A DNA stretch of 24,000 nucleotides, from positions 2,015,888 to 2,039,887 of the forward strand of contig NZ_CP068983.1 in assembly GCF_016801025.1 (NCBI RefSeq), given 5' to 3'. Under the pieces are notes generated by a model that was given only the letters and a program-made list of their open reading frames with translations, ran no database searches and was not told the origin of the DNA. Source of the DNA: Paradevosia shaoguanensis. GTDB lineage: Bacteria; Pseudomonadota; Alphaproteobacteria; Rhizobiales; Devosiaceae. Positions within the stretch are counted from its first letter, which is position 1. Each line of letters opens with the position of its first letter. The position numbers were made by a program, and so were the translations under genes. This document shows positions 2,687 to 20,201 of the stretch, piece by piece.

Positions 2687-2742
2687 CCACAACCACTGAA
2701 CTTCCCCGGATCAAGTCCGGGGAAGTCCGGTGGGTGGGGAGG
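2687..2742. repeat. Short form of the CTTCCCCGG...CCGGGGAAG intergenic repeat family; probable bidirectional terminator between convergent genes
   Basis: CTTCCCCGG (2701-2709) atcaagt CCGGGGAAG (2717-2725), flanked by CCAC...GGTGG. The 17-nt left arm ccactgaacttccccgg is identical to the outer arm of the long copy at 8106-8135 (rc). Confidence 0.6.
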
Positions 2743-2782: not shown

Positions 2783-3757
2783 CTAGGCGTCCTCGCCACC
2801 ACCGTGGTCGCGCTGTACCGTCTCGGCCGGCGCCGGGGCAGGCGTATCGGTCCCGTGCGGGCGCCCGAAATCGGCGGCGGCGGTTTCCTGGCCGGCATTG
2901 ATGATCGAGCGGCGGATGGCGCGGGTGCGGGTGAAGAGCGCTTCGAGCGCCGGCCCGTCGCCGTTGCGCACGGCGCGCTGGAGCGAGGACAGGTCCTCGT
3001 TGAAGCGCCCGAGCATTTCGAGCACCGCGTCGCGATTGGTAAGGAACACGTCGCGCCACATCACCGGATCGCTGGCGGCGATGCGGGTGAAGTCGCGGAA
3101 GCCCGAGGCCGAGAACTTGATGACTTCGGACTTGGTCGACGTTTCTAGATCCGCCACCGTGCCCACGATGTTGTAGGCGATGAGGTGCGGAATGTGGCTG
3201 GTAATGGCCAGCACCATGTCATGGTGCGCCGGGTCCATCACTTCGACGTTCGAGCCAAGGGCCCGCCAGAAGCCGACGAGCTTGTCGATCGCCTCGGGAT
3301 CGGTCCCCGCCTCGGGCGTCAGCACGCACCAGCGGTTGATGAAGAGTTCCGGGAAGCCCGCCGACGGCCCCGAATGCTCGGTGCCGGCAATGGGGTGGCC
3401 GGGGATGAAGTGGACATTGGCGGGAAGCAGCGGCTTCATCACCTTGACCACGTGCTCCTTGACCGAGCCTACGTCCGACACGATGGCTCCGGGCATCAGG
3501 GCGGCGGCGATGGCGCGGGTCACGGCCTCGTAGGCGCCCACAGGCGTGCAGAGGATGACGAGGTCGGCGCCTTCGACGGCCCTGGCCGGGTCGCGCTCAT
3601 AGATGTCGCCCAAGCCAAGCGCTTTGGCTTCATCGAGCGTCGCCTGGCTGCGGGTCGAGATGGCAATTGTTCTGGCCAGGCCATGCTGGCGCACGGCGCG
3701 GGCGATCGAGGAGCCGATGAGGCCGATGCCGATCAGGGCGAGCTTTTCGAACGTCAC
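2783..3757 (-). CDS. tyrC: Prephenate/arogenate (cyclohexadienyl) dehydrogenase
   Basis: Rossmann N-terminus KLALIGIGLIGSSIARAV, then GSVK...HFIPGHPIAG...HD..LA.TSHIPH blocks of the TyrA family. I place the start at GTG 3755-3757, overlapping the hisC stop (GTGA). The 409-aa track ORF is an over-extension into hisC. Confidence 0.85.
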   Translation of the reverse strand: MTFEKLALIGIGLIGSSIARAVRQHGLARTIAISTRSQATLDEAKALGLGDIYERDPARAVEGADLVILCTPVGAYEAVTRAIAAALMPGAIVSDVGSVKEHVVKVMKPLLPANVHFIPGHPIAGTEHSGPSAGFPELFINRWCVLTPEAGTDPEAIDKLVGFWRALGSNVEVMDPAHHDMVLAITSHIPHLIAYNIVGTVADLETSTKSEVIKFSASGFRDFTRIAASDPVMWRDVFLTNRDAVLEMLGRFNEDLSSLQRAVRNGDGPALEALFTRTRAIRRSIINAGQETAAADFGRPHGTDTPAPAPAETVQRDHGGGEDA

Positions 3758-4848
3758 GGGCGACCCCCAAAATCCTTCAAGATCCCGACCACCCGGCGCA
3801 TGGCGTCCTCGGGGCCGATGCTGATGCGCAGCCCGTTGGGAATGCCGTAGCTGTCCCCTACCTCGCGCACGATGAGGCCCTGCTGGTAGAGCGCCTGGAA
3901 GGCCGCGGAGGCCCGGGCGGCGTCGGGGAACAGCAAGAGGATGAAATTGCCCTGACTGGGCACGACGCGCATCTCGTTGGAATTGAGGCTCTGGGTCAGC
4001 CAGTCGCGCCAATCGGCATTGTATTCGCGCAGGCGCGTATTGAATTCGATATCGCGCGCCGCTTCGGCCGCGGCATACTGGGCCGGGCGGTTGAGGTTGA
4101 AGGGGCTGCGGATGCGGTTGACCAGGTCCACGATCTCGCGCCGGCCATACATCCAGCCAACGCGCGCCGCGGCGAGCCCGATCTTGGAGAAGGTGCGGAC
4201 CATGACGACATTGCGCGCATTGTCGACCAGCTCGATGCCGGCCGTGTAGTCGCCGGCGGTGACGAAGTCGGCATAGGCGCTGTCGATGACCAGCAGGATA
4301 TCGGGGCGCAGGCCCCTGTGCAGCCGCTCGAGTTCGGCGGCCGGCAGGTAGGTGCCGGTGGGGTTATTGGGGTTGGCCAGGAACACCATTTTGGTGCGCT
4401 CGGTCACCGCCGCCAGCATGGCGTCGACATCGGCCGTGTAGTCGGTCTCCTCGGCAACCACCAGCGTGGCGCCTGCCGCCGCGGTGATGATCGGATAGAC
4501 CGAAAAGCCATAGCGGCTCATGATCGCCTCGTGCCCGACATCGAGGAACGATTGGGCGAGAAGGTGCAGGATATCGTCCGAGCCGTTGCCGCAAAGGATC
4601 TGGTCGGGGTCCAGCCCGTTCACCTCGCCCAAAGCCACGCGCAGGTGTTTTGAGGTCCCCTCCGGATAGATTTCGAGGCCTTCGGAAACCGCCTGGTTGA
4701 AGGCATGCAGCGCGCGCGGGCTCGTGCCCAGCGGGCTCTCATTGGCCGAAAGCTTCACCGGAGCAACCCCCGGCGCCGCCTGCGAGCGGCCGGGAACGTA
4801 GGGCGCAATGGTCAGCAGGCCTGGACGGGGTACGGGACGGTCGGACAT
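3754..4848 (-). CDS. hisC: Histidinol-phosphate (aromatic-type) aminotransferase
   Basis: LSANESPLG, NPNNPTG and SKIGLAA(R) (PLP-lysine region) blocks of class II aminotransferases. ATG 4846-4848 gives MSDRPVPRPG...; the track start GTG 4860 is an alternative. Confidence 0.88.
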   Translation of the reverse strand: MSDRPVPRPGLLTIAPYVPGRSQAAPGVAPVKLSANESPLGTSPRALHAFNQAVSEGLEIYPEGTSKHLRVALGEVNGLDPDQILCGNGSDDILHLLAQSFLDVGHEAIMSRYGFSVYPIITAAAGATLVVAEETDYTADVDAMLAAVTERTKMVFLANPNNPTGTYLPAAELERLHRGLRPDILLVIDSAYADFVTAGDYTAGIELVDNARNVVMVRTFSKIGLAAARVGWMYGRREIVDLVNRIRSPFNLNRPAQYAAAEAARDIEFNTRLREYNADWRDWLTQSLNSNEMRVVPSQGNFILLLFPDAARASAAFQALYQQGLIVREVGDSYGIPNGLRISIGPEDAMRRVVGILKDFGGRP

Positions 4849-5002
4849 GGATGGATTCACGAAAGGTGGATGGACCGGGCCGGACCATATTCAAAGGTCG
4901 CCGCGAACGCAAAGAAAAGCCGGAGGGGAGGGTGGAAAGTCGCGGGGGAGCGAGCCGGGGTAAATCTCCACCCTCGTCCCTCGTCCTGCCTCACACCCCA
5001 CT

Positions 5003-5094
5003 CTCACCCCACCCTCCCCACCACCGCACTTCCCCGGGCGAAGACCCGGGGTCTATTGCACCCCTCCACCCGAGTGGAGGTATCCGTGGGCCCC
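5003..5094 (+). repeat. Left part of a long-form structured intergenic repeat, interrupted by the IS
   Basis: 5029-5094 aligns to the reverse complement of 8057-8122 with 3 mismatches. It contains hairpins CCCCGGG/CCCGGGG and CCTCCAC/GTGGAGG. Confidence 0.8.
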
Positions 5095-5124
5095 TGTGTA
5101 ATTGTGCTGTGCCATATTGGGTAC

Positions 5125-5249
5125 GGGCGGGAGACCGTTGGGCCCCAGGTTTAAAGACCGAGAGCCGGCACGGGTCCCCGCCCGCTTTGACAAACACCTG
5201 AACAGTTGCACGAGGCCGCTTGAGACGGACCTCGGATCACAGGGACAGG
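5125..5249 (+). ncRNA. Candidate bridge RNA (target-binding module 5125-5183, donor-binding module 5197-5249)
   Basis: Hand-folded. Stems are 5125-5136/5173-5183 and 5197-5200/5246-5249, with a capping hairpin 5211-5217/5227-5234. Loop arms are TGGGCCCC (5139-5146, same as left flank), AGAGCCGG (5161-5168, rc of core + right flank), ACAGTTGC (5202-5209, same as IS right end) and CACAGG (5238-5243, rc of core + IS left end). Confidence 0.55.
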
Positions 5250-5252
5250 CCC

Positions 5253-6185
5253 ATGACCCTATCACCGACCTGGATTGGAATCGACGTTTCGAAAGCCTGG
5301 CTGGATATCGCCTCTTCCGGCGGGGAGGGCGTGCAGCGGATCGCCAACACGATGGACGCCATCGCCGCATTCGCCGCCACGCTGGAGCGGGAGGGCACTC
5401 TCGTGGTGCTGGAGGCGAGCGGGGTTTACGACAGGAGCTTGCGCGCCGGACTGGCGCTGGCCGGGATCGGCCATGTCCGGGTCAATCCGCTGCGGGCCCG
5501 TGACTTTGCGCGGGCCAGCGGCCAGCTCGCCAAGACCGATGCGCTCGATGCGGCCATGCTTGCCGAAATGGGCCGGGCCCTGCGCCTCGTGGCCGACCCG
5601 CTGCCCGAGGCCGGACGCGAGCGGCTCGGCCTGCTCAGCCGCCGCCGCGACCAGTTGGTGGCCATGCGCACCCAGGAAAAGCAGCGCCGGATCGAGATAA
5701 CCGATTCCTTCATCGGCGCCGACCTGGACCGGCACCTGGCCGGTCTCAACCAGGCCATCGCCGCCATCGAGGTCGAAATCCAGAACCAGATCGGCAGCGA
5801 TGCCGCCCTGGCACAGGACCAGGCCCTGATCCGCTCGGTGCCCGGCATCGGCCCGGTCACCGCCTCTGTCCTGGCCGCCCTGATGCCCGAACTGGGCCGG
5901 CGCTCGGGCAAGCAGATCGCCACCCTGGCCGGGTTGGCCCCGCTCAACAACGATAGCGGCCTACGGCGCGGACAGCGCTCCATCCGCGGTGGCCGCCGCC
6001 GCGTCCGCCAGGCCCTCTACATGGCCGCCGTCGCATCCTTGCGAACACAATCGCCTCTCAACGCCTTCTACCACCGCCTGCGCCAGGCCGGAAAACCACC
6101 CAAGCCTGCCCTCGTTGCCCTCGCCAGAAAGCTCCTCGTCACCATCAACGCCATCATGAAAAACCGAACAAGCTTCGCAACCTGA
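5253..6185 (+). CDS. IS110-family transposase/recombinase (DEDD RuvC-like N-domain plus Tnp C-domain)
   Basis: MTLSPTWIGIDVSKAWLD..., VVLEASGVY, AKTDALDAAMLA (DEDD residues), helix-hairpin-helix IRSVPGIGPVTASVL, and LAPLNNDSG with the conserved Ser. ATG 5253 is preceded by AGGGA (5241-5245). The track start TTG 5220 is unlikely. Confidence 0.92.
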   Translation: MTLSPTWIGIDVSKAWLDIASSGGEGVQRIANTMDAIAAFAATLEREGTLVVLEASGVYDRSLRAGLALAGIGHVRVNPLRARDFARASGQLAKTDALDAAMLAEMGRALRLVADPLPEAGRERLGLLSRRRDQLVAMRTQEKQRRIEITDSFIGADLDRHLAGLNQAIAAIEVEIQNQIGSDAALAQDQALIRSVPGIGPVTASVLAALMPELGRRSGKQIATLAGLAPLNNDSGLRRGQRSIRGGRRRVRQALYMAAVASLRTQSPLNAFYHRLRQAGKPPKPALVALARKLLVTINAIMKNRTSFAT

Positions 6186-6197
6186 ATTACAGTTGCC

Positions 6198-6234
6198 GGC
6201 TCTGCGGCCGGGGAAGTCCTGTGGTGATGGCGGG
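6198..6234 (+). repeat. Right part of the interrupted long-form repeat
   Basis: GGCTCTGCGGCCGGGGAAG (6198-6216) is identical to rc of 8038-8056. The following tcctgtggtg pairs with the caccac arm at the left end. Confidence 0.8.
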
Positions 6235-6277
6235 ATTAGCAAGAAGCTGCCGGCGGCGATCACCCGGCGCCGCCGCC

Positions 6278-7021
6278 CTAAACCTTCGGCGGCAATTGCA
6301 TGATCGTCTGCGGCGCCAGGTCCGGCACACGGATATAGCGTTCGACCCGCAGCCGCCGGGGCACCGCCGGGAATGCCTCTTTGCGCGCTTTCACAATCGT
6401 AACCCCCGCAAAGGTCGGCCCGAAAACCCGCAGCCCGCGTTCGAACAGGCGCGTGGATTTGAGCACGAGCCCGGTATGAAAAGGCGGCAGGAACAGCGCG
6501 TCGCGCCAGGCTTCAGGCGTGAAGGAATGGTCGCGCAGCAGCTTTTCGAGCTGGGGCCCCGAGAACGGATTGCCCGTGCCGAAGGGCGTGTTGTCCCGTT
6601 GCGCCCACATGCCGCGCCGACGCGGCACCACCACGATCAACCGCGCATTGGGCGCCGAAATGCGCCAGAGCTCGCGCATCAATTCCTCGGCATCCGCAAT
6701 GTGCTCGAAGGCGTGGACCGCAATGGTGAGGTCCACCGCCGCATCGGTCAGCGGCATTTCGAGCGGGTCGCAGAGCACGGTATGCGACGGGCCCTCGCGT
6801 GGCCAGGCCGAGGCGCCCTGGCGCGCCGGCATGAAGGCAAGCACGCGCTCGGCAGGCTCCAGCGCGAAGCGCAGATAGGGCGAGGCGAAACCGAGGCCCA
6901 GCACGCGCAGGCCGCGCACCTCGCCGGCCAGCGCCATGATCTGCTCGCGCACCAGCGCCCGCGCGATCCGGCCCAGCGGGGTCTTGTAGAAATCGATGAG
7001 TCGGCGAACGTCCTGGGCCAT
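6278..7021 (-). CDS. Class I SAM-dependent methyltransferase
   Basis: Motif I-like RVLGLGFASPYL and downstream blocks. ATG 7019-7021 is preceded by GGAG (aattGGAGccATG). The track start at 7087 is an alternative. Confidence 0.78.
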   Translation of the reverse strand: MAQDVRRLIDFYKTPLGRIARALVREQIMALAGEVRGLRVLGLGFASPYLRFALEPAERVLAFMPARQGASAWPREGPSHTVLCDPLEMPLTDAAVDLTIAVHAFEHIADAEELMRELWRISAPNARLIVVVPRRRGMWAQRDNTPFGTGNPFSGPQLEKLLRDHSFTPEAWRDALFLPPFHTGLVLKSTRLFERGLRVFGPTFAGVTIVKARKEAFPAVPRRLRVERYIRVPDLAPQTIMQLPPKV

Positions 7022-7111
7022 GGCTCCAATTTGCGTGAAGTCGTTCCGCTTGTCATCTAGGTGCCCCGTCCCTAACTTCCCACCCATCGCTCACAAGGAT
7101 GGAACGGAACA

Positions 7112-7885
7112 GTGACCCTGATCGTCGACGTCTTCCAGGCTCGCCAGGACAATTACGGCTACCTCGCCCACGATACCCAGACCGGCAGGACGGCCGCCAT
7201 CGATGCTCCCGAGGCCCTGGCGATCAAGACGGCGCTGCTTCACCGCGGCTGGACGCTCTCCGACATCTTCATCACCCACCACCACACGGATCACGTCGAG
7301 GGCATTGCCGAGCTCAAGCGCGATTTCGGCGTCACTGTCACCGGCCCGCGCGCCGAGGCCGACAAGATCGACGGGCTCGACGTTCTGGTCGGCCCCGGCG
7401 AGCCGCTGGCCCTGGGCAAGACCGCGTTCGAGATCATTGCCACGCCCGGGCACACGCTCGGCCATATCGCCTATTTCGACCGTGCCGGGCTGCATCTCTT
7501 CACCGGTGACGCGCTCTTCTCGCTGGGCTGCGGGCGCATGTTCGAGGGAACGCCGGAGCCGATGTGGGAGGGGCTCAAGCGCCTGCGGGCGCTGCCCGAT
7601 GACACGCTCATCTATTGCGGGCACGAATACACTGCCGCCAATGCCCGCTACGCGCTCGCCGTCGATCCGGACAATCTCGATCTCAAGCTGCGCGCCGGGC
7701 AGGTCAACACCCTGCGCCAGGCCGGCCGCTTCACGGTGCCCTCGCGGCTGGGCGAAGAGAAGCGCGCCAATCCCTTCCTGCGCGCCGACGACCCAGGCAT
7801 AGCCGCAGCCATGGGCCTGCGCGGCGCCGAACCTTTTGCGGTTTTCGCGGCGCTTCGGAAGGGCAAGGACGAGTTCAAGGGGTAG
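7112..7885 (+). CDS. gloB: Hydroxyacylglutathione hydrolase (glyoxalase II)
   Basis: THHHTDHVEG metallo-beta-lactamase motif, TPGHTLGH, GDALF..GCGR and C-terminal NPFLR blocks characteristic of GloB. GTG start at 7112. Confidence 0.9.
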   Translation: MTLIVDVFQARQDNYGYLAHDTQTGRTAAIDAPEALAIKTALLHRGWTLSDIFITHHHTDHVEGIAELKRDFGVTVTGPRAEADKIDGLDVLVGPGEPLALGKTAFEIIATPGHTLGHIAYFDRAGLHLFTGDALFSLGCGRMFEGTPEPMWEGLKRLRALPDDTLIYCGHEYTAANARYALAVDPDNLDLKLRAGQVNTLRQAGRFTVPSRLGEEKRANPFLRADDPGIAAAMGLRGAEPFAVFAALRKGKDEFKG

Positions 7886-8011: not shown

Positions 8012-8150
8012 GCCACCAGGCGCACCACCCCCACGATCTTCCCCGGCCGCAGAGCCGGGGCCCACGGATGCCTCCACTCGAGTGGAGGGGTGCAATAGGC
8101 CCCGGGTCTTCGCCCGGGGAAGTTCAGTGGTGGGGTGGGATTGGGTGGTG
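8012..8150 (-). repeat. Intact long-form copy of the structured repeat (three 7-bp hairpins closed by an outer stem), inverted relative to the 5003-6234 copy
   Basis: The 85-nt core 8038-8122 matches 5029-5094 plus 6198-6216 (rc) with 3 mismatches. The outer arms CACCAC...GTGGTG are also conserved. Confidence 0.8.
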
Positions 8151-19700: not shown

Positions 19701-20201
19701 ATGTTCCAACCCGCTCCCGCCGCCGATGCCTTTGCCAGCAAATCCGAGCTCTACGCCGAACTCGCGCTGCAACTCACTGGCCTCTTCACCGGCGAGCGCG
19801 ACAGGATCGCCAATGCCGCCAACATGTCGGCGCTGATCTTCGCCATGCTGCCCGATCTCAACTGGGCCGGGTTCTACTTCCTCAACGCGGCGGGCGACGA
19901 GCTGGTCGTCGGGCCCTTCCAGGGCAAGCCGGCCTGCGTGCGCATCGCCATCGGGCGCGGCGTCTGCGGCACCTCGGTGGCCGAAAAGCGCTCCATCGTC
20001 GTCCCCGACGTTTTCGCCTTCCCCGGCCACATCGCCTGCGACGCCGCCTCGCGCTCCGAACTGGTGGTGCCGCTGCTTAAGGACGGCAAGGTCATCGGCG
20101 TTCTCGACCTCGACAGCCCCAATCCGGGCCGGTTTGATGAAGAAGATCGCGCCGGGCTGGAGAAGGCCGCGGCGATTTTCTTGGACGCCAGCGACTTCTA
20201 G
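19701..20201 (+). CDS. GAF domain protein of the free methionine-(R)-sulfoxide reductase (YebR/MsrC-like) family
   Basis: WAGFYF...GPFQGKPACVRIAIGRGVCG...FPGHIACD..SRSELVVPL pattern typical of fRMsr GAF proteins. 166 aa from ATG 19701. Confidence 0.8.
   Translation: MFQPAPAADAFASKSELYAELALQLTGLFTGERDRIANAANMSALIFAMLPDLNWAGFYFLNAAGDELVVGPFQGKPACVRIAIGRGVCGTSVAEKRSIVVPDVFAFPGHIACDAASRSELVVPLLKDGKVIGVLDLDSPNPGRFDEEDRAGLEKAAAIFLDASDF

What the first reader, a model, noticed from the sequence alone, without database searches (positions are those of the whole stretch)
5095..5252. Candidate bridge RNA in the left end of the IS110-family element, with all four guide segments readable against sequences in this window
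Seen directly: the 158-nt non-coding left end can be drawn as two consecutive stem/internal-loop/hairpin modules. Module 1 has a closing stem GGGCGGG(A)GACC 5125-5136 with GGTCCCCGCCC 5173-5183 (11 bp, one bulge). Its 5' loop arm contains TGGGCCCC (5139-5146), identical to the 8 host nt abutting the IS (5087-5094, including the CC core). Its 3' loop arm AGAGCCGG (5161-5168) is the exact reverse complement of CCGGCTCT (6196-6203, core plus right flank). Module 2 is closed by CCTG 5197-5200 / CAGG 5246-5249 and capped by the hairpin CGAGGCC 5211-5217 / GG(A)CCTCG 5227-5234. Its 5' arm ACAGTTGC (5202-5209) equals 8 nt at the IS right end, 6189-6196 (the terminal ACAGTTG plus the first core C). 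Its 3' arm CACAGG (5238-5243) is the reverse complement of CC+TGTG (5093-5098, core plus the first 4 nt of the IS). Established knowledge: IS110-group elements such as IS621 encode a bridge RNA in the left end. It has a target-binding loop followed by a donor-binding loop, each with split guides addressing opposite strands either side of a dinucleotide core (Durrant et al. 2024; Hiraizumi et al. 2024, Nature). Inference: this is an uncharacterised, unusually compact ortholog (RNA core about 125 nt) programmed to target a host repeat hairpin. The 3' donor guide overlaps the transposase SD (AGGGA 5241-5245), so RNA folding and translation may compete. Caveats: the fold is by hand with no energy calculation, the left target guide has one extra T relative to the flank, and the right donor guide is only 6 nt.
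Basis: partly seen in the sequence, partly recalled or inferred. Interest (0 to 1): 0.88.

Follow-up and report, generated by a model that had tools for sequence, protein, structure and literature searches.

The report
Bridge RNA of a compact IS110 element
The stretch encodes the guide ("bridge") RNA of a small jumping gene of the IS110 family, programmed to insert into a repeated hairpin of its host; this is a clear but ordinary example of a mechanism described in 2024.

Summary
Window 5095-6195 is a 1,101-bp IS110-group insertion sequence flanked by a CC core. Its 158-nt left end encodes a two-module RNA (about 5125-5250) homologous to the IS621 bridge RNA.

- **Structure:** across 57 orthologous left ends, all four helices are supported by compensatory changes (97% paired; 25 of 28 pairs covary).
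- **Guides:** the loop arms track their own flanks and ends. Cognate matches average 6.4 and 6.0 nt, against 2.9 for mismatched pairs. The "handshake" nucleotides obey the published cross-pairing rule.
- **Homology:** a covariance model built only from this element's relatives finds the validated IS621 bridge RNA in register (31 bits).
- **Target:** an unoccupied copy of the target lies in the same window at 8051-8064(-), inside a ~95-nt host repeat. This fixes the element's borders.

Two corrections apply. The compactness is a property of the whole CC-core clade: the junction promoter has moved inward and there is no 5' stem-loop. The overlap with the ribosome-binding region is also seen in IS621.

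Expression and activity are untested. This is a new member of a known kind, of modest interest.

The parts
5087..5094 (+). Left target half (TGGGCC) plus the CC core copy (5093-5094)
   Evidence: Identical to left target guide 5139-5146. The empty site at 8051-8064(-) shows a single CC between the halves.
5095..6195 (+). IS110-group insertion sequence, 1,101 bp
   Evidence: Borders are fixed by comparison with the unoccupied repeat copy and with 98-99% identical copies at other sites (L083, L094, L095).
5097..5103 (+). Left subterminal inverted repeat TGTAATT (partner AATTACA at 6186-6192)
   Evidence: 3-7 bp repeats in the CC-core clade that change together on both ends. This explains the alternative pairing.
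5110..5118 (+). Predicted extended -10 (TG 5110-5111, CATATT 5113-5118) of the circle-junction promoter
   Evidence: The circle junction reads TTGCCT, 17 nt, CATATT. The same hexamers and the fixed 17-nt spacing occur in all 20 CC-core loci despite divergent spacers. No promoter is found in the integrated form. Inferred, not measured.
5123..5185 (+). Target-binding loop module: closing stem 5123-5136 / 5173-5185 with bulged A5132, and inner hairpin 5148-5159
   Evidence: 13 + 4 pairs, all with compensatory changes, 98-100% paired. The bulged A aligns with the flipped-out A43 of IS621 (PMC11208158).
5139..5146 (+). Left target guide (UGGGCCCC)
   Evidence: Equals flank plus core. It changes with the flank in relatives: GGGTC, GGATC, GACC, GCAATCC.
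5161..5168 (+). Right target guide (AGAGCCGG)
   Evidence: Reverse complement of core plus right flank. It covaries with the right flank, including within one genome (L149/L150).
5169..5170 (+). Handshake guide of the target loop (CA)
   Evidence: Complementary to the last two bases of the right end (TG 6194-6195), not to the target. The first position pairs with donor position 7 in 34/34 relatives.
5186..5196 (+). Linker between the two modules
   Evidence: Variable in sequence and length in the alignments.
5197..5249 (+). Donor-binding loop module: closing stem 5197-5200 / 5246-5249, and inner hairpin 5211-5234 with bulged A5229
   Evidence: Both helices are 95% paired. The closing stem switches between CCUG/CAGG and CCCG/CGGG (28 versus 26 sequences).
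5202..5209 (+). Left donor guide (ACAGUUGC)
   Evidence: Equals the last 7 nt of the IS plus the first core base. Variants ACAGUCG, ACGGUUG, ACCGUUG and ACAGCCG each match their own right end.
5238..5243 (+). Right donor guide (CACAGG)
   Evidence: Reverse complement of core plus TGTG. CT-core relatives carry CAAG opposite CT+TG.
5244..5245 (+). Handshake guide of the donor loop (GA)
   Evidence: G5244 is complementary to target position 7 (C5092), not to the donor. It pairs in 34/38 relatives, with G:C 27 and A:T 7.
5253..6185 (+). Recombinase gene, 310 aa
   Evidence: Pfam DEDD_Tnp_IS110 and Transposase_20. NCBIfam NF033542 'IS110 family RNA-guided transposase', 211.8 bits against a cut-off of 140. 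Full-length matches to ISCro4 (9t56) and IS621 (8wt6) recombinases. D11, E54, D96, D99 and S235 are invariant.
6186..6195 (+). Right end, only 10 nt. It contains the left donor sequence ACAGTTG (6189-6195) and the TTG of the junction -35
6196..6213 (+). Second CC core copy (6196-6197), right target half GGCTCT (6198-6203), and the rest of the split host hairpin
8030..8147 (-). Unoccupied copy of the host repeat, carrying a perfect 14-nt target (8051-8064)
   Evidence: Zero mismatches to TGGGCCCCGGCTCT. 92% identical over 125 nt to the reconstructed empty site.

Best explanation
Window 5095-6195 is an IS110-group insertion sequence, and the region from about 5125 to 5250 encodes its bridge RNA.

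**Likely mechanism**
1. When the element excises as a circle, its right end (TTG), the CC core and the first base of the left end form a -35 box (TTGCCT).
2. This -35 box lies 17 nt upstream of the -10 box CATATT (5113-5118). Transcription would therefore start near G5125.
3. The RNA folds into two modules. The first carries the left target guide UGGGCCCC and the right target guide AGAGCCGG. These pair with opposite strands of the host site TGGGCC-CC-GGCTCT, which is the 5' arm of a hairpin in a repeated host element.
4. The second module carries ACAGUUGC and CACAGG, which pair with the circle junction ACAGTTG-CC-TGTG.
5. The recombinase, with a DEDD domain and a catalytic serine, binds both modules and exchanges strands at the CC core. 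Two handshake nucleotides in each loop help by pairing with the other DNA after exchange.

**Shown here:** the sequence matches, the conserved fold, the guide-flank covariation, homology to IS621, and the borders of the element.

**Inferred:** the transcription start, the 3' end of the RNA, RNA accumulation, and recombination activity.
For: - **Sequence matches:** all strings verified. None of 20,000 shuffles reproduced the four guide matches.
- **Recombinase:** it passes Pfam and NCBIfam IS110 thresholds and aligns end to end with the IS621 and ISCro4 recombinases.
- **Conserved position:** a covariance model from 10 close left ends hits directly upstream of the recombinase gene in most orthologous loci from many phyla.
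- **Fold:** on 57 hits, 97% of cells pair and 25 of 28 pairs show compensatory changes. Slid controls pair at 37-48%.
- **Guide-flank covariation:** cognate contiguous matches average 6.35 nt (left) and 5.98 nt (right), against 2.9 for mismatched pairs with the same core. Matches of at least 7 nt occur in 42% and 62% of cognate pairs, against 1.3% and 4.6%.
- **Donor guide:** it changes together with the right end.
- **Handshake rule:** met in 34/34 and 34/38 relatives, with G:C to A:T covariation.
- **Homology:** model R2, built only from this family, finds the validated IS621 bridge RNA in register (31 bits, E = 3.5e-6).
- **Borders:** an empty target copy lies in the window.
- **Natural retargeting:** two copies in one genome with an identical protein differ at 6 of 1,095 nt. 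Two of those are in the right target guide, and each guide matches its own flank.
Against: - No expression or activity data exist for this element.
- The integrated copy has no recognisable promoter, so the RNA may be scarce unless the element is circular. IS621 shows the same weak expression from chromosomal copies (PMC13626964).
- The promoter and the start site are consensus-based inferences.
- The covariation alignment was fitted to the model structure, which biases pair counts upward. The slid and shuffled controls argue that this bias is small.
- The right donor guide is short (6 nt contiguous).
- The left and right target guides can partly pair with each other, because the target is palindromic.
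- Rfam gives no hit. However, it gives none for the validated IS621 RNA either, so this is uninformative.
Confidence: 0.93

Rival explanations
1. The region is only DNA-level machinery plus a leader: a promoter, recombinase-binding terminal sequences and a 5' untranslated region. The loop-to-flank matches would be by-products of terminal repeats and of a palindromic GC-rich target, with no guide RNA involved.
For: The element has real subterminal inverted repeats. The target is palindromic, so the left and right target guides resemble each other's complement. No RNA has been observed.
Against: Compensatory base changes in four helices only make sense for an RNA. Guides follow their flanks across unrelated target sequences. 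The handshake positions covary with the opposite DNA. The region is homologous, in register, to an RNA shown to be necessary for IS621 recombination (PMC11208160).
Confidence: 0.02
2. The RNA gene is intact in sequence, but this copy is a resident relic. It no longer moves, either because the bridge RNA is not expressed from the integrated copy or because the recombinase is impaired.
For: No promoter is present in the integrated configuration. Only one copy lies in the 24-kb window. A relative occupies the same intergenic locus in a host whose neighbouring gene is 73% identical, which would fit long residence. The Devosia sp. D6-9 copy carries a donor-guide mutation that mismatches its own end.
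Against: The reading frame is intact and all catalytic residues are present. All four guides match perfectly. Copies 98-99% identical sit at different sites in other genomes (L083, L095). A 70% relative has at least six identical copies in one genome. A perfect empty target lies only 2 kb away, which neither supports nor excludes activity.
Confidence: 0.12
3. The structured leader acts mainly in cis to control translation of the recombinase. The donor-loop 3' half would sequester the ribosome-binding region, and guiding would be secondary.
For: The donor module ends 3 nt before the ATG, and the purine-rich AGGGACAGG lies inside it. In close relatives the model always ends at the ATG.
Against: The same abutment occurs in IS621, whose RNA is a proven guide. 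In more distant relatives the RNA ends 10-60 nt upstream of the start codon, yet keeps the same fold and guides. A cis role would be additional, not an alternative.
Confidence: 0.05

Closest known systems
IS621 bridge RNA and recombinase (Escherichia coli; Durrant et al. 2024, PMC11208160; Hiraizumi et al. 2024, PMC11208158)
   Same: - Encoded in the left end, with the target-binding loop followed by the donor-binding loop.
- Each loop has a 5' guide identical to the top strand and a 3' guide complementary to it, overlapping a dinucleotide core.
- The left donor guide covers 7 nt plus only the first core base in both (ACAGUAUC versus ACAGUUGC).
- Bulged adenines sit at homologous positions.
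- Handshake dinucleotides follow the core complement.
- The RNA ends at the start codon.
- The promoter exists only in the circle.
- The target is a repeated extragenic palindrome.
- The recombinases align over their full length (E = 3e-28).
   Different: - Core CC instead of CT.
- No 5' stem-loop (33 nt in IS621).
- RNA of about 125 nt against 177 nt, with a donor module of 53 nt against 68 nt.
- The -35 box is assembled from right end + core + left end, and the -10 sits at left-end positions 19-24. In IS621-like relatives the -35 lies inside a longer right end and the -10 at positions 3-8.
- Right end of 10 nt. The element is 1,101 bp; IS621's length was not measured here, only its recombinase gene (981 bp).
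- Subterminal inverted repeat of 7 bp, against the 2-3 bp reported for the IS110 group.
ISCro4 recombinase (PDB 9t56)
   Same: It is the best solved-structure match (E = 2.8e-31, residues 7-308 aligned). The DEDD and serine motifs align.
   Different: Only the protein was compared. Its RNA and target were not examined here.
ISPpu10 / ISPpu9 of Pseudomonas putida (bioRxiv 10.64898/2026.03.19.712850; PMC12288879)
   Same: These are IS110 elements that insert into repeated intergenic palindromic sequences whose stem-loop accompanies the guide match. Here too the target lies in the 5' arm of a GC-rich hairpin within a repeated element.
   Different: The host group and target sequence differ. Whether the hairpin itself contributes to recognition here is untested.
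IS1111-group elements and seekRNA
   Same: Same recombinase family and the same RNA-guided logic.
   Different: Those elements carry the RNA in the right end, downstream of the gene, with long subterminal repeats. Here the RNA is upstream, in the left end.

Membership tests
IS110-group bridge RNA | Encoded in the non-coding left end, upstream of a DEDD/serine IS110 recombinase | tested here: met
   The RNA model hit at 5116-5255 abuts the ATG at 5253. The protein passes Pfam PF01548 and PF02371 and NCBIfam NF033542.
IS110-group bridge RNA | Two consecutive stem / internal-loop / hairpin modules supported by covariation | tested here: met
   Four helices, 97% paired, 25 of 28 pairs with compensatory changes, controls at 37-48%. 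The minimum-energy fold of 5125-5252 gives the same architecture.
IS110-group bridge RNA | The first loop carries a 5' arm identical to left target + core and a 3' arm complementary to core + right target | tested here: met
   8 + 8 nt exact in the window. Cognate versus mismatched comparison across 40 loci.
IS110-group bridge RNA | The second loop carries a 5' arm identical to the right end + core and a 3' arm complementary to core + left end | tested here: met
   8 + 6 nt in the window. Donor-guide variants track their own right ends.
IS110-group bridge RNA | Handshake guides pair with the non-cognate DNA and avoid the cognate DNA at position 7 | tested here: met
   C5169 is complementary to G6195. 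G5244 is complementary to C5092. Across relatives: 34/34 and 34/38 pair with the non-cognate DNA, and 0 pair with the cognate DNA.
IS110-group bridge RNA | Sequence and structure homology to an experimentally validated bridge RNA | tested here: met
   Model R2, built from this family, hits the IS621 bridge RNA in register at 31 bits, E = 3.5e-6. R1 gives 13 bits as the top hit. The published covariance models themselves were not available.
IS110-group bridge RNA | 5' stem-loop preceding the target-binding loop (described as structurally conserved among orthologues, PMC11208158) | tested here: not met
   Only 28-33 nt lie between the IS end and the first stem, and they hold the predicted -10 box. 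No hairpin is conserved in 19 CC-core relatives (energies 0 to -5 kcal/mol, differing shapes). In IS621 this part enhances the reaction but is not required for it, so this is an accessory feature.
IS110-group bridge RNA | Promoter reconstituted across the circle junction | tested here: met
   TTGCCT, 17 nt, CATATT with a TG extension, conserved in 20/20 CC-core loci and absent from the integrated form. This is sequence-level evidence only.
IS110-group bridge RNA | The RNA is expressed, binds the recombinase and is required for recombination | not testable with these tools
   Needs small-RNA sequencing, binding assays and recombination assays.
IS110 family recombinase | DEDD catalytic residues and a conserved serine | tested here: met
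   D11, E54, D96, D99 and S235 are invariant in 29 relatives. They align with the motifs of ISCro4 and IS621 (IS621 residues D11, E60, D102, D105, S241 per PMC11208158).
IS1111 group | Guide RNA in a long right end downstream of the gene | tested here: not met
   The right end is 10 nt (6186-6195). The RNA lies upstream of the gene.

The most novel reading that the evidence does not exclude
The CC-core clade to which this element belongs may be a naturally minimised bridge system, with four linked features.

- The element is about 1.1 kb and its right end is only about 10 nt.
- The -35 box is made literally from right end + core + left end, so the guide RNA is produced only after excision.
- The RNA is about 125 nt, has no 5' stem-loop, and doubles as the complete leader of the recombinase mRNA.
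- On this reading, folding into the donor module and translation initiation would be mutually exclusive on each transcript.

The evidence establishes the anatomy but not the expression or the competition.
Probability: 0.3. Interest if true: 0.45.

Novelty: new member of a known kind. Interest (0 to 1): 0.3.

Why it matters
This case shows that a bridge RNA, its four guides and its handshake nucleotides can be read directly from raw sequence. It also shows they can be confirmed without experiments, here with the help of an empty target site in the same window.

**Biology.** It adds an alphaproteobacterial (Devosia-like) member that targets a host palindromic repeat. It also documents natural retargeting by two point changes in a guide.

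**Engineering.** A clade with a ~125-nt RNA and a 310-aa recombinase is a candidate for smaller bridge editors. That requires showing that the missing 5' stem-loop costs no activity.

None of this changes the known mechanism.

Tried and rejected
- **Rfam search.** Searches at gathering and permissive thresholds gave only chance-level hits. This is not evidence against the RNA, because the validated IS621 bridge RNA also has no Rfam hit.
- **Exact look-up of the window's recombinase.** It found nothing, so near-identical proteins were used instead.
- **Genome-collection scan with a protein alignment.** Closer relatives came from look-ups of individual proteins.
- **Plasmid collection.** It holds no copy of this element.
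- **5' hairpin at 5109-5124.** It appeared in the first fold and was considered as the counterpart of the IS621 5' stem-loop. It was rejected because it overlaps the conserved -10 box and is not conserved in relatives.
- **Weak model hit at 19844-19952(-).** It lies in coding sequence with no recombinase nearby and is noise.
- **First automatic border calls.** They were off by one base in CCC runs and wrong for a few distant loci. They were corrected by requiring the left end to start with TGT or TAT.

Full report
**1. Checking the observation**

All fifteen strings and coordinates in the finding were reproduced exactly.
- The closing stem of module 1 is 11 bp with a bulged A5132.
- The hairpin of module 2 is 7 bp with a bulged A5229.

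These matches are not chance. In 20,000 dinucleotide-preserving shuffles of the 158-nt left end, the individual guide strings appeared at frequencies of 0.017, 0.006, 0.005 and 0.085. All four never appeared together.

An energy calculation on 5095-5260 gave -69.1 kcal/mol (z = -2.7). It recovered module 1, but paired the IS terminus with the left donor guide rather than forming CCUG/CAGG. That alternative comes from a 7-bp subterminal inverted repeat, AATTACA 6186-6192 with TGTAATT 5097-5103.

**2. The element**

The ORF at 5253-6185 encodes a 310-aa protein.
- It carries Pfam DEDD_Tnp_IS110 and Transposase_20.
- It passes the NCBIfam model named 'IS110 family RNA-guided transposase' (211.8 bits, cut-off 140).
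- It aligns over residues 7-308 with the solved ISCro4 and IS621 recombinases (E = 3e-31 and 3e-28).
- D11, E54, D96, D99 and S235 are invariant among 29 relatives. They correspond to the IS621 catalytic residues D11, E60, D102, D105 and S241 (PMC11208158).

The borders are fixed independently. The window contains an unoccupied copy of the same host repeat at 8030-8147 on the minus strand. It is 92% identical over 125 nt to the site reconstructed by removing 5095-6197. It has a perfect TGGGCCCCGGCTCT at 8051-8064 and a single CC where the occupied site has one CC on each side.

The element is therefore 5095-6195, 1,101 bp, with a 158-nt left end and a 10-nt right end. It is the only copy in the window.

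**3. The target**

The host repeat is a composite of two GC-rich hairpins, CCCCGG-loop-CCGGGG, separated by a third small hairpin. Four such hairpins occur in the window, against 0.11 expected.

The insertion point lies in the 5' arm of the second hairpin. Copies of this element that are 98-99% identical, from other genomes, sit in different members of the same repeat family:
- Devosia sp. D6-9, L083: AATGGGCC|CC ... CC|GGATCAAG.
- L095: AATAGGCC|CC ... CC|GGCTCTGC.

**4. Is it an RNA?**

I collected left ends from relatives between 99% and about 40% protein identity.

The model hits directly upstream of the recombinase gene in most orthologous loci. These come from Alphaproteobacteria, Dehalococcoidia, Nitrospira, Planctomycetota, Deinococcus and Cyanobacteria.

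On the 57 best hits:
- 97% of cells form standard pairs.
- 25 of 28 pairs show changes on both sides.
- The covariation score is 0.577, against 0.206 for shuffles (0 of 500 reach it) and 0.04-0.10 when the partners are slid by 1-3 columns.
- Even the short CCUG/CAGG stem alternates with CCCG/CGGG (28 versus 26 sequences).

The alignment was fitted to the model, which favours the structure. The gap to the slid controls is far larger than such bias explains.

**5. Do the loops guide?**

For 40 distinct loci I located the borders from the donor guides and compared the target-loop arms with the flanks.

| Comparison | Left arm | Right arm |
|---|---|---|
| Cognate pairs, mean contiguous match | 6.35 nt | 5.98 nt |
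| Mismatched pairs with the same core, mean | 2.92 nt | 2.86 nt |
| Cognate pairs with a match of at least 7 nt | 42% | 62% |
| Mismatched pairs with a match of at least 7 nt | 1.3% | 4.6% |

Close relatives make the point visually.
- **Left guide and flank:** GGGCCCC with flank GGGCC|CC; GGGUCC with GGGTC|CC; GGAUCCC with GGATC|CC.
- **Right guide and flank:** GAGAGCCGG with CCGGCTCT; GUGACCCGG with CCGGGTCA.
- **Donor guide and right end:** ACAGUCG, ACGGUUG, ACCGUUG and ACAGCCG each match their own right end.

The sharpest case is L149 versus L150. They come from the same genome and encode an identical protein. They differ at six of 1,095 nt, and two of those fall in the 9-nt right target guide. 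Each version matches its own right flank.

**6. Handshake guides**

Hiraizumi et al. showed that the two nucleotides 3' of the core complement in each loop pair with the other DNA after strand exchange, and must not pair with their own DNA (PMC11208158).
- C5169-A5170 is the exact complement of the last two bases of the right end (TG), not of the target (CC).
- G5244 is complementary to target position 7 (C5092), not to donor position 7 (G).

Across relatives, the first handshake position of the target loop pairs with the donor in 34/34 cases. That of the donor loop pairs with the target in 34/38 cases, with G:C in 27 and A:T in 7. Neither ever pairs with its cognate DNA.

**7. Link to the validated RNA**

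Rfam 15 gives nothing for the window. It also gives nothing for the IS621 bridge RNA itself, so it holds no such family.

I took the 177-nt IS621 RNA sequence from the supplement of PMC11208158. I located it in an E. coli genome and searched that locus with my models.
- The model built from 57 relatives of the window element (R2) finds the IS621 RNA at 31 bits, E = 3.5e-6.
- It is the top hit and is in register. Guide aligns with guide, and the bulged adenines align with the flipped-out A43 and A150.
- The hit begins just after the IS621 5' stem-loop and ends at the ATG.

**8. What differs from IS621**

*Promoter.* The circle junction of this element reads TTGCCT, 17 nt, CATATT. The -35 box is assembled from right end TTG, core CC and left-end T. 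A TG lies upstream of the -10 box.
- All 20 CC-core relatives keep these hexamers and the 17-nt spacing, although the spacers diverge.
- The integrated form has no promoter.
- The -10 box ends 5 nt before the first paired base, which puts the start near G5125.

*No 5' stem-loop.* There is no room for one, and none is conserved in 19 relatives.

*Contrast with CT-core relatives.* These IS621-like elements keep a TTGACA -35 box inside a longer right end and a -10 box at left-end positions 3-8.

The compactness is therefore real: an RNA of about 125 nt against 177 nt. It is a clade property with a structural cause, not a peculiarity of this copy. CC-core elements measure 1,094-1,112 bp with left ends of 154-170 nt.

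*Overlap with the ribosome-binding region.* The donor loop does overlap it, but the IS621 RNA also ends at the base before its ATG.

**9. Verdict**

This is a bridge RNA gene of an uncatalogued IS110-group element, probably from a Devosia-like alphaproteobacterium. Every sequence-level defining feature of the family is met except the accessory 5' stem-loop.

Expression, the RNA's 3' end and activity remain untested. It is a new member of a known kind. The mechanism was established in 2024 and bridge RNAs were predicted for 85.7% of IS110-group elements (PMC11208160), so interest is modest.

Noticed in passing
window 2704-2722, 5032-5051, 8041-8060, 8100-8119: A host family of GC-rich hairpins (CCCCGG-loop-CCGGGG) is arranged in a ~95-nt composite intergenic repeat. 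Four occur in 24 kb, against 0.11 expected. One composite copy is occupied by the IS and one is empty.
   Followed up: partly
L086 1-3945 (ERZ25074488 contig_4) versus window 3754-7885: A relative of the IS (70% protein identity) lies in the same intergenic locus (aminotransferase / methyltransferase / glyoxalase II-like gene) in another genome. The neighbouring methyltransferase there is 73% identical. This means either an old, vertically inherited insertion or independent hits on a conserved repeat.
   Followed up: partly
L149 and L150 (JGI 3300058952, same contig): Two copies encoding the identical recombinase differ at 6 of 1,095 nt. Two of the differences lie in the right target guide, and each guide matches its own right flank (CCGGGTCA versus CCGGCTCA). 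This is natural retargeting by point mutation.
   Followed up: yes
L083 (Devosia sp. D6-9, CP045919.1 3527967-3532046): This 98% identical copy has a G-to-A change in the left donor guide (ACAATTGC), so it no longer matches its own right end. Its recombinase is annotated with a 49-residue N-terminal extension that runs through the bridge RNA.
   Followed up: partly
window 5097-5103 and 6186-6192: A 7-bp subterminal inverted repeat (TGTAATT / AATTACA). Relatives have 3-7 bp repeats that change together on both ends. This is longer than the 2-3 bp reported for the IS110 group.
   Followed up: partly
L024, L033, L040, L053 and other CT-core loci (right ends): IS621-like relatives carry a consensus TTGACA about 13-18 nt before the end of a longer right end. 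This gives TTGACA-17-TATCTT across the junction. The CC-core clade has lost this and builds its -35 box at the junction itself.
   Followed up: partly
L170 1588-1713 (E. coli NZ_CP151045.1): Upstream of a complete IS621 there is a partial tandem copy of its left end. It is cut inside the hairpin of the target-binding loop and followed directly by the IS621 left terminus.
   Followed up: no
window 5139-5146 with 5161-5168: Because the target is palindromic, the left and right target guides are partly complementary to each other. They pair in the minimum-energy fold, which could compete with target binding.
   Followed up: no
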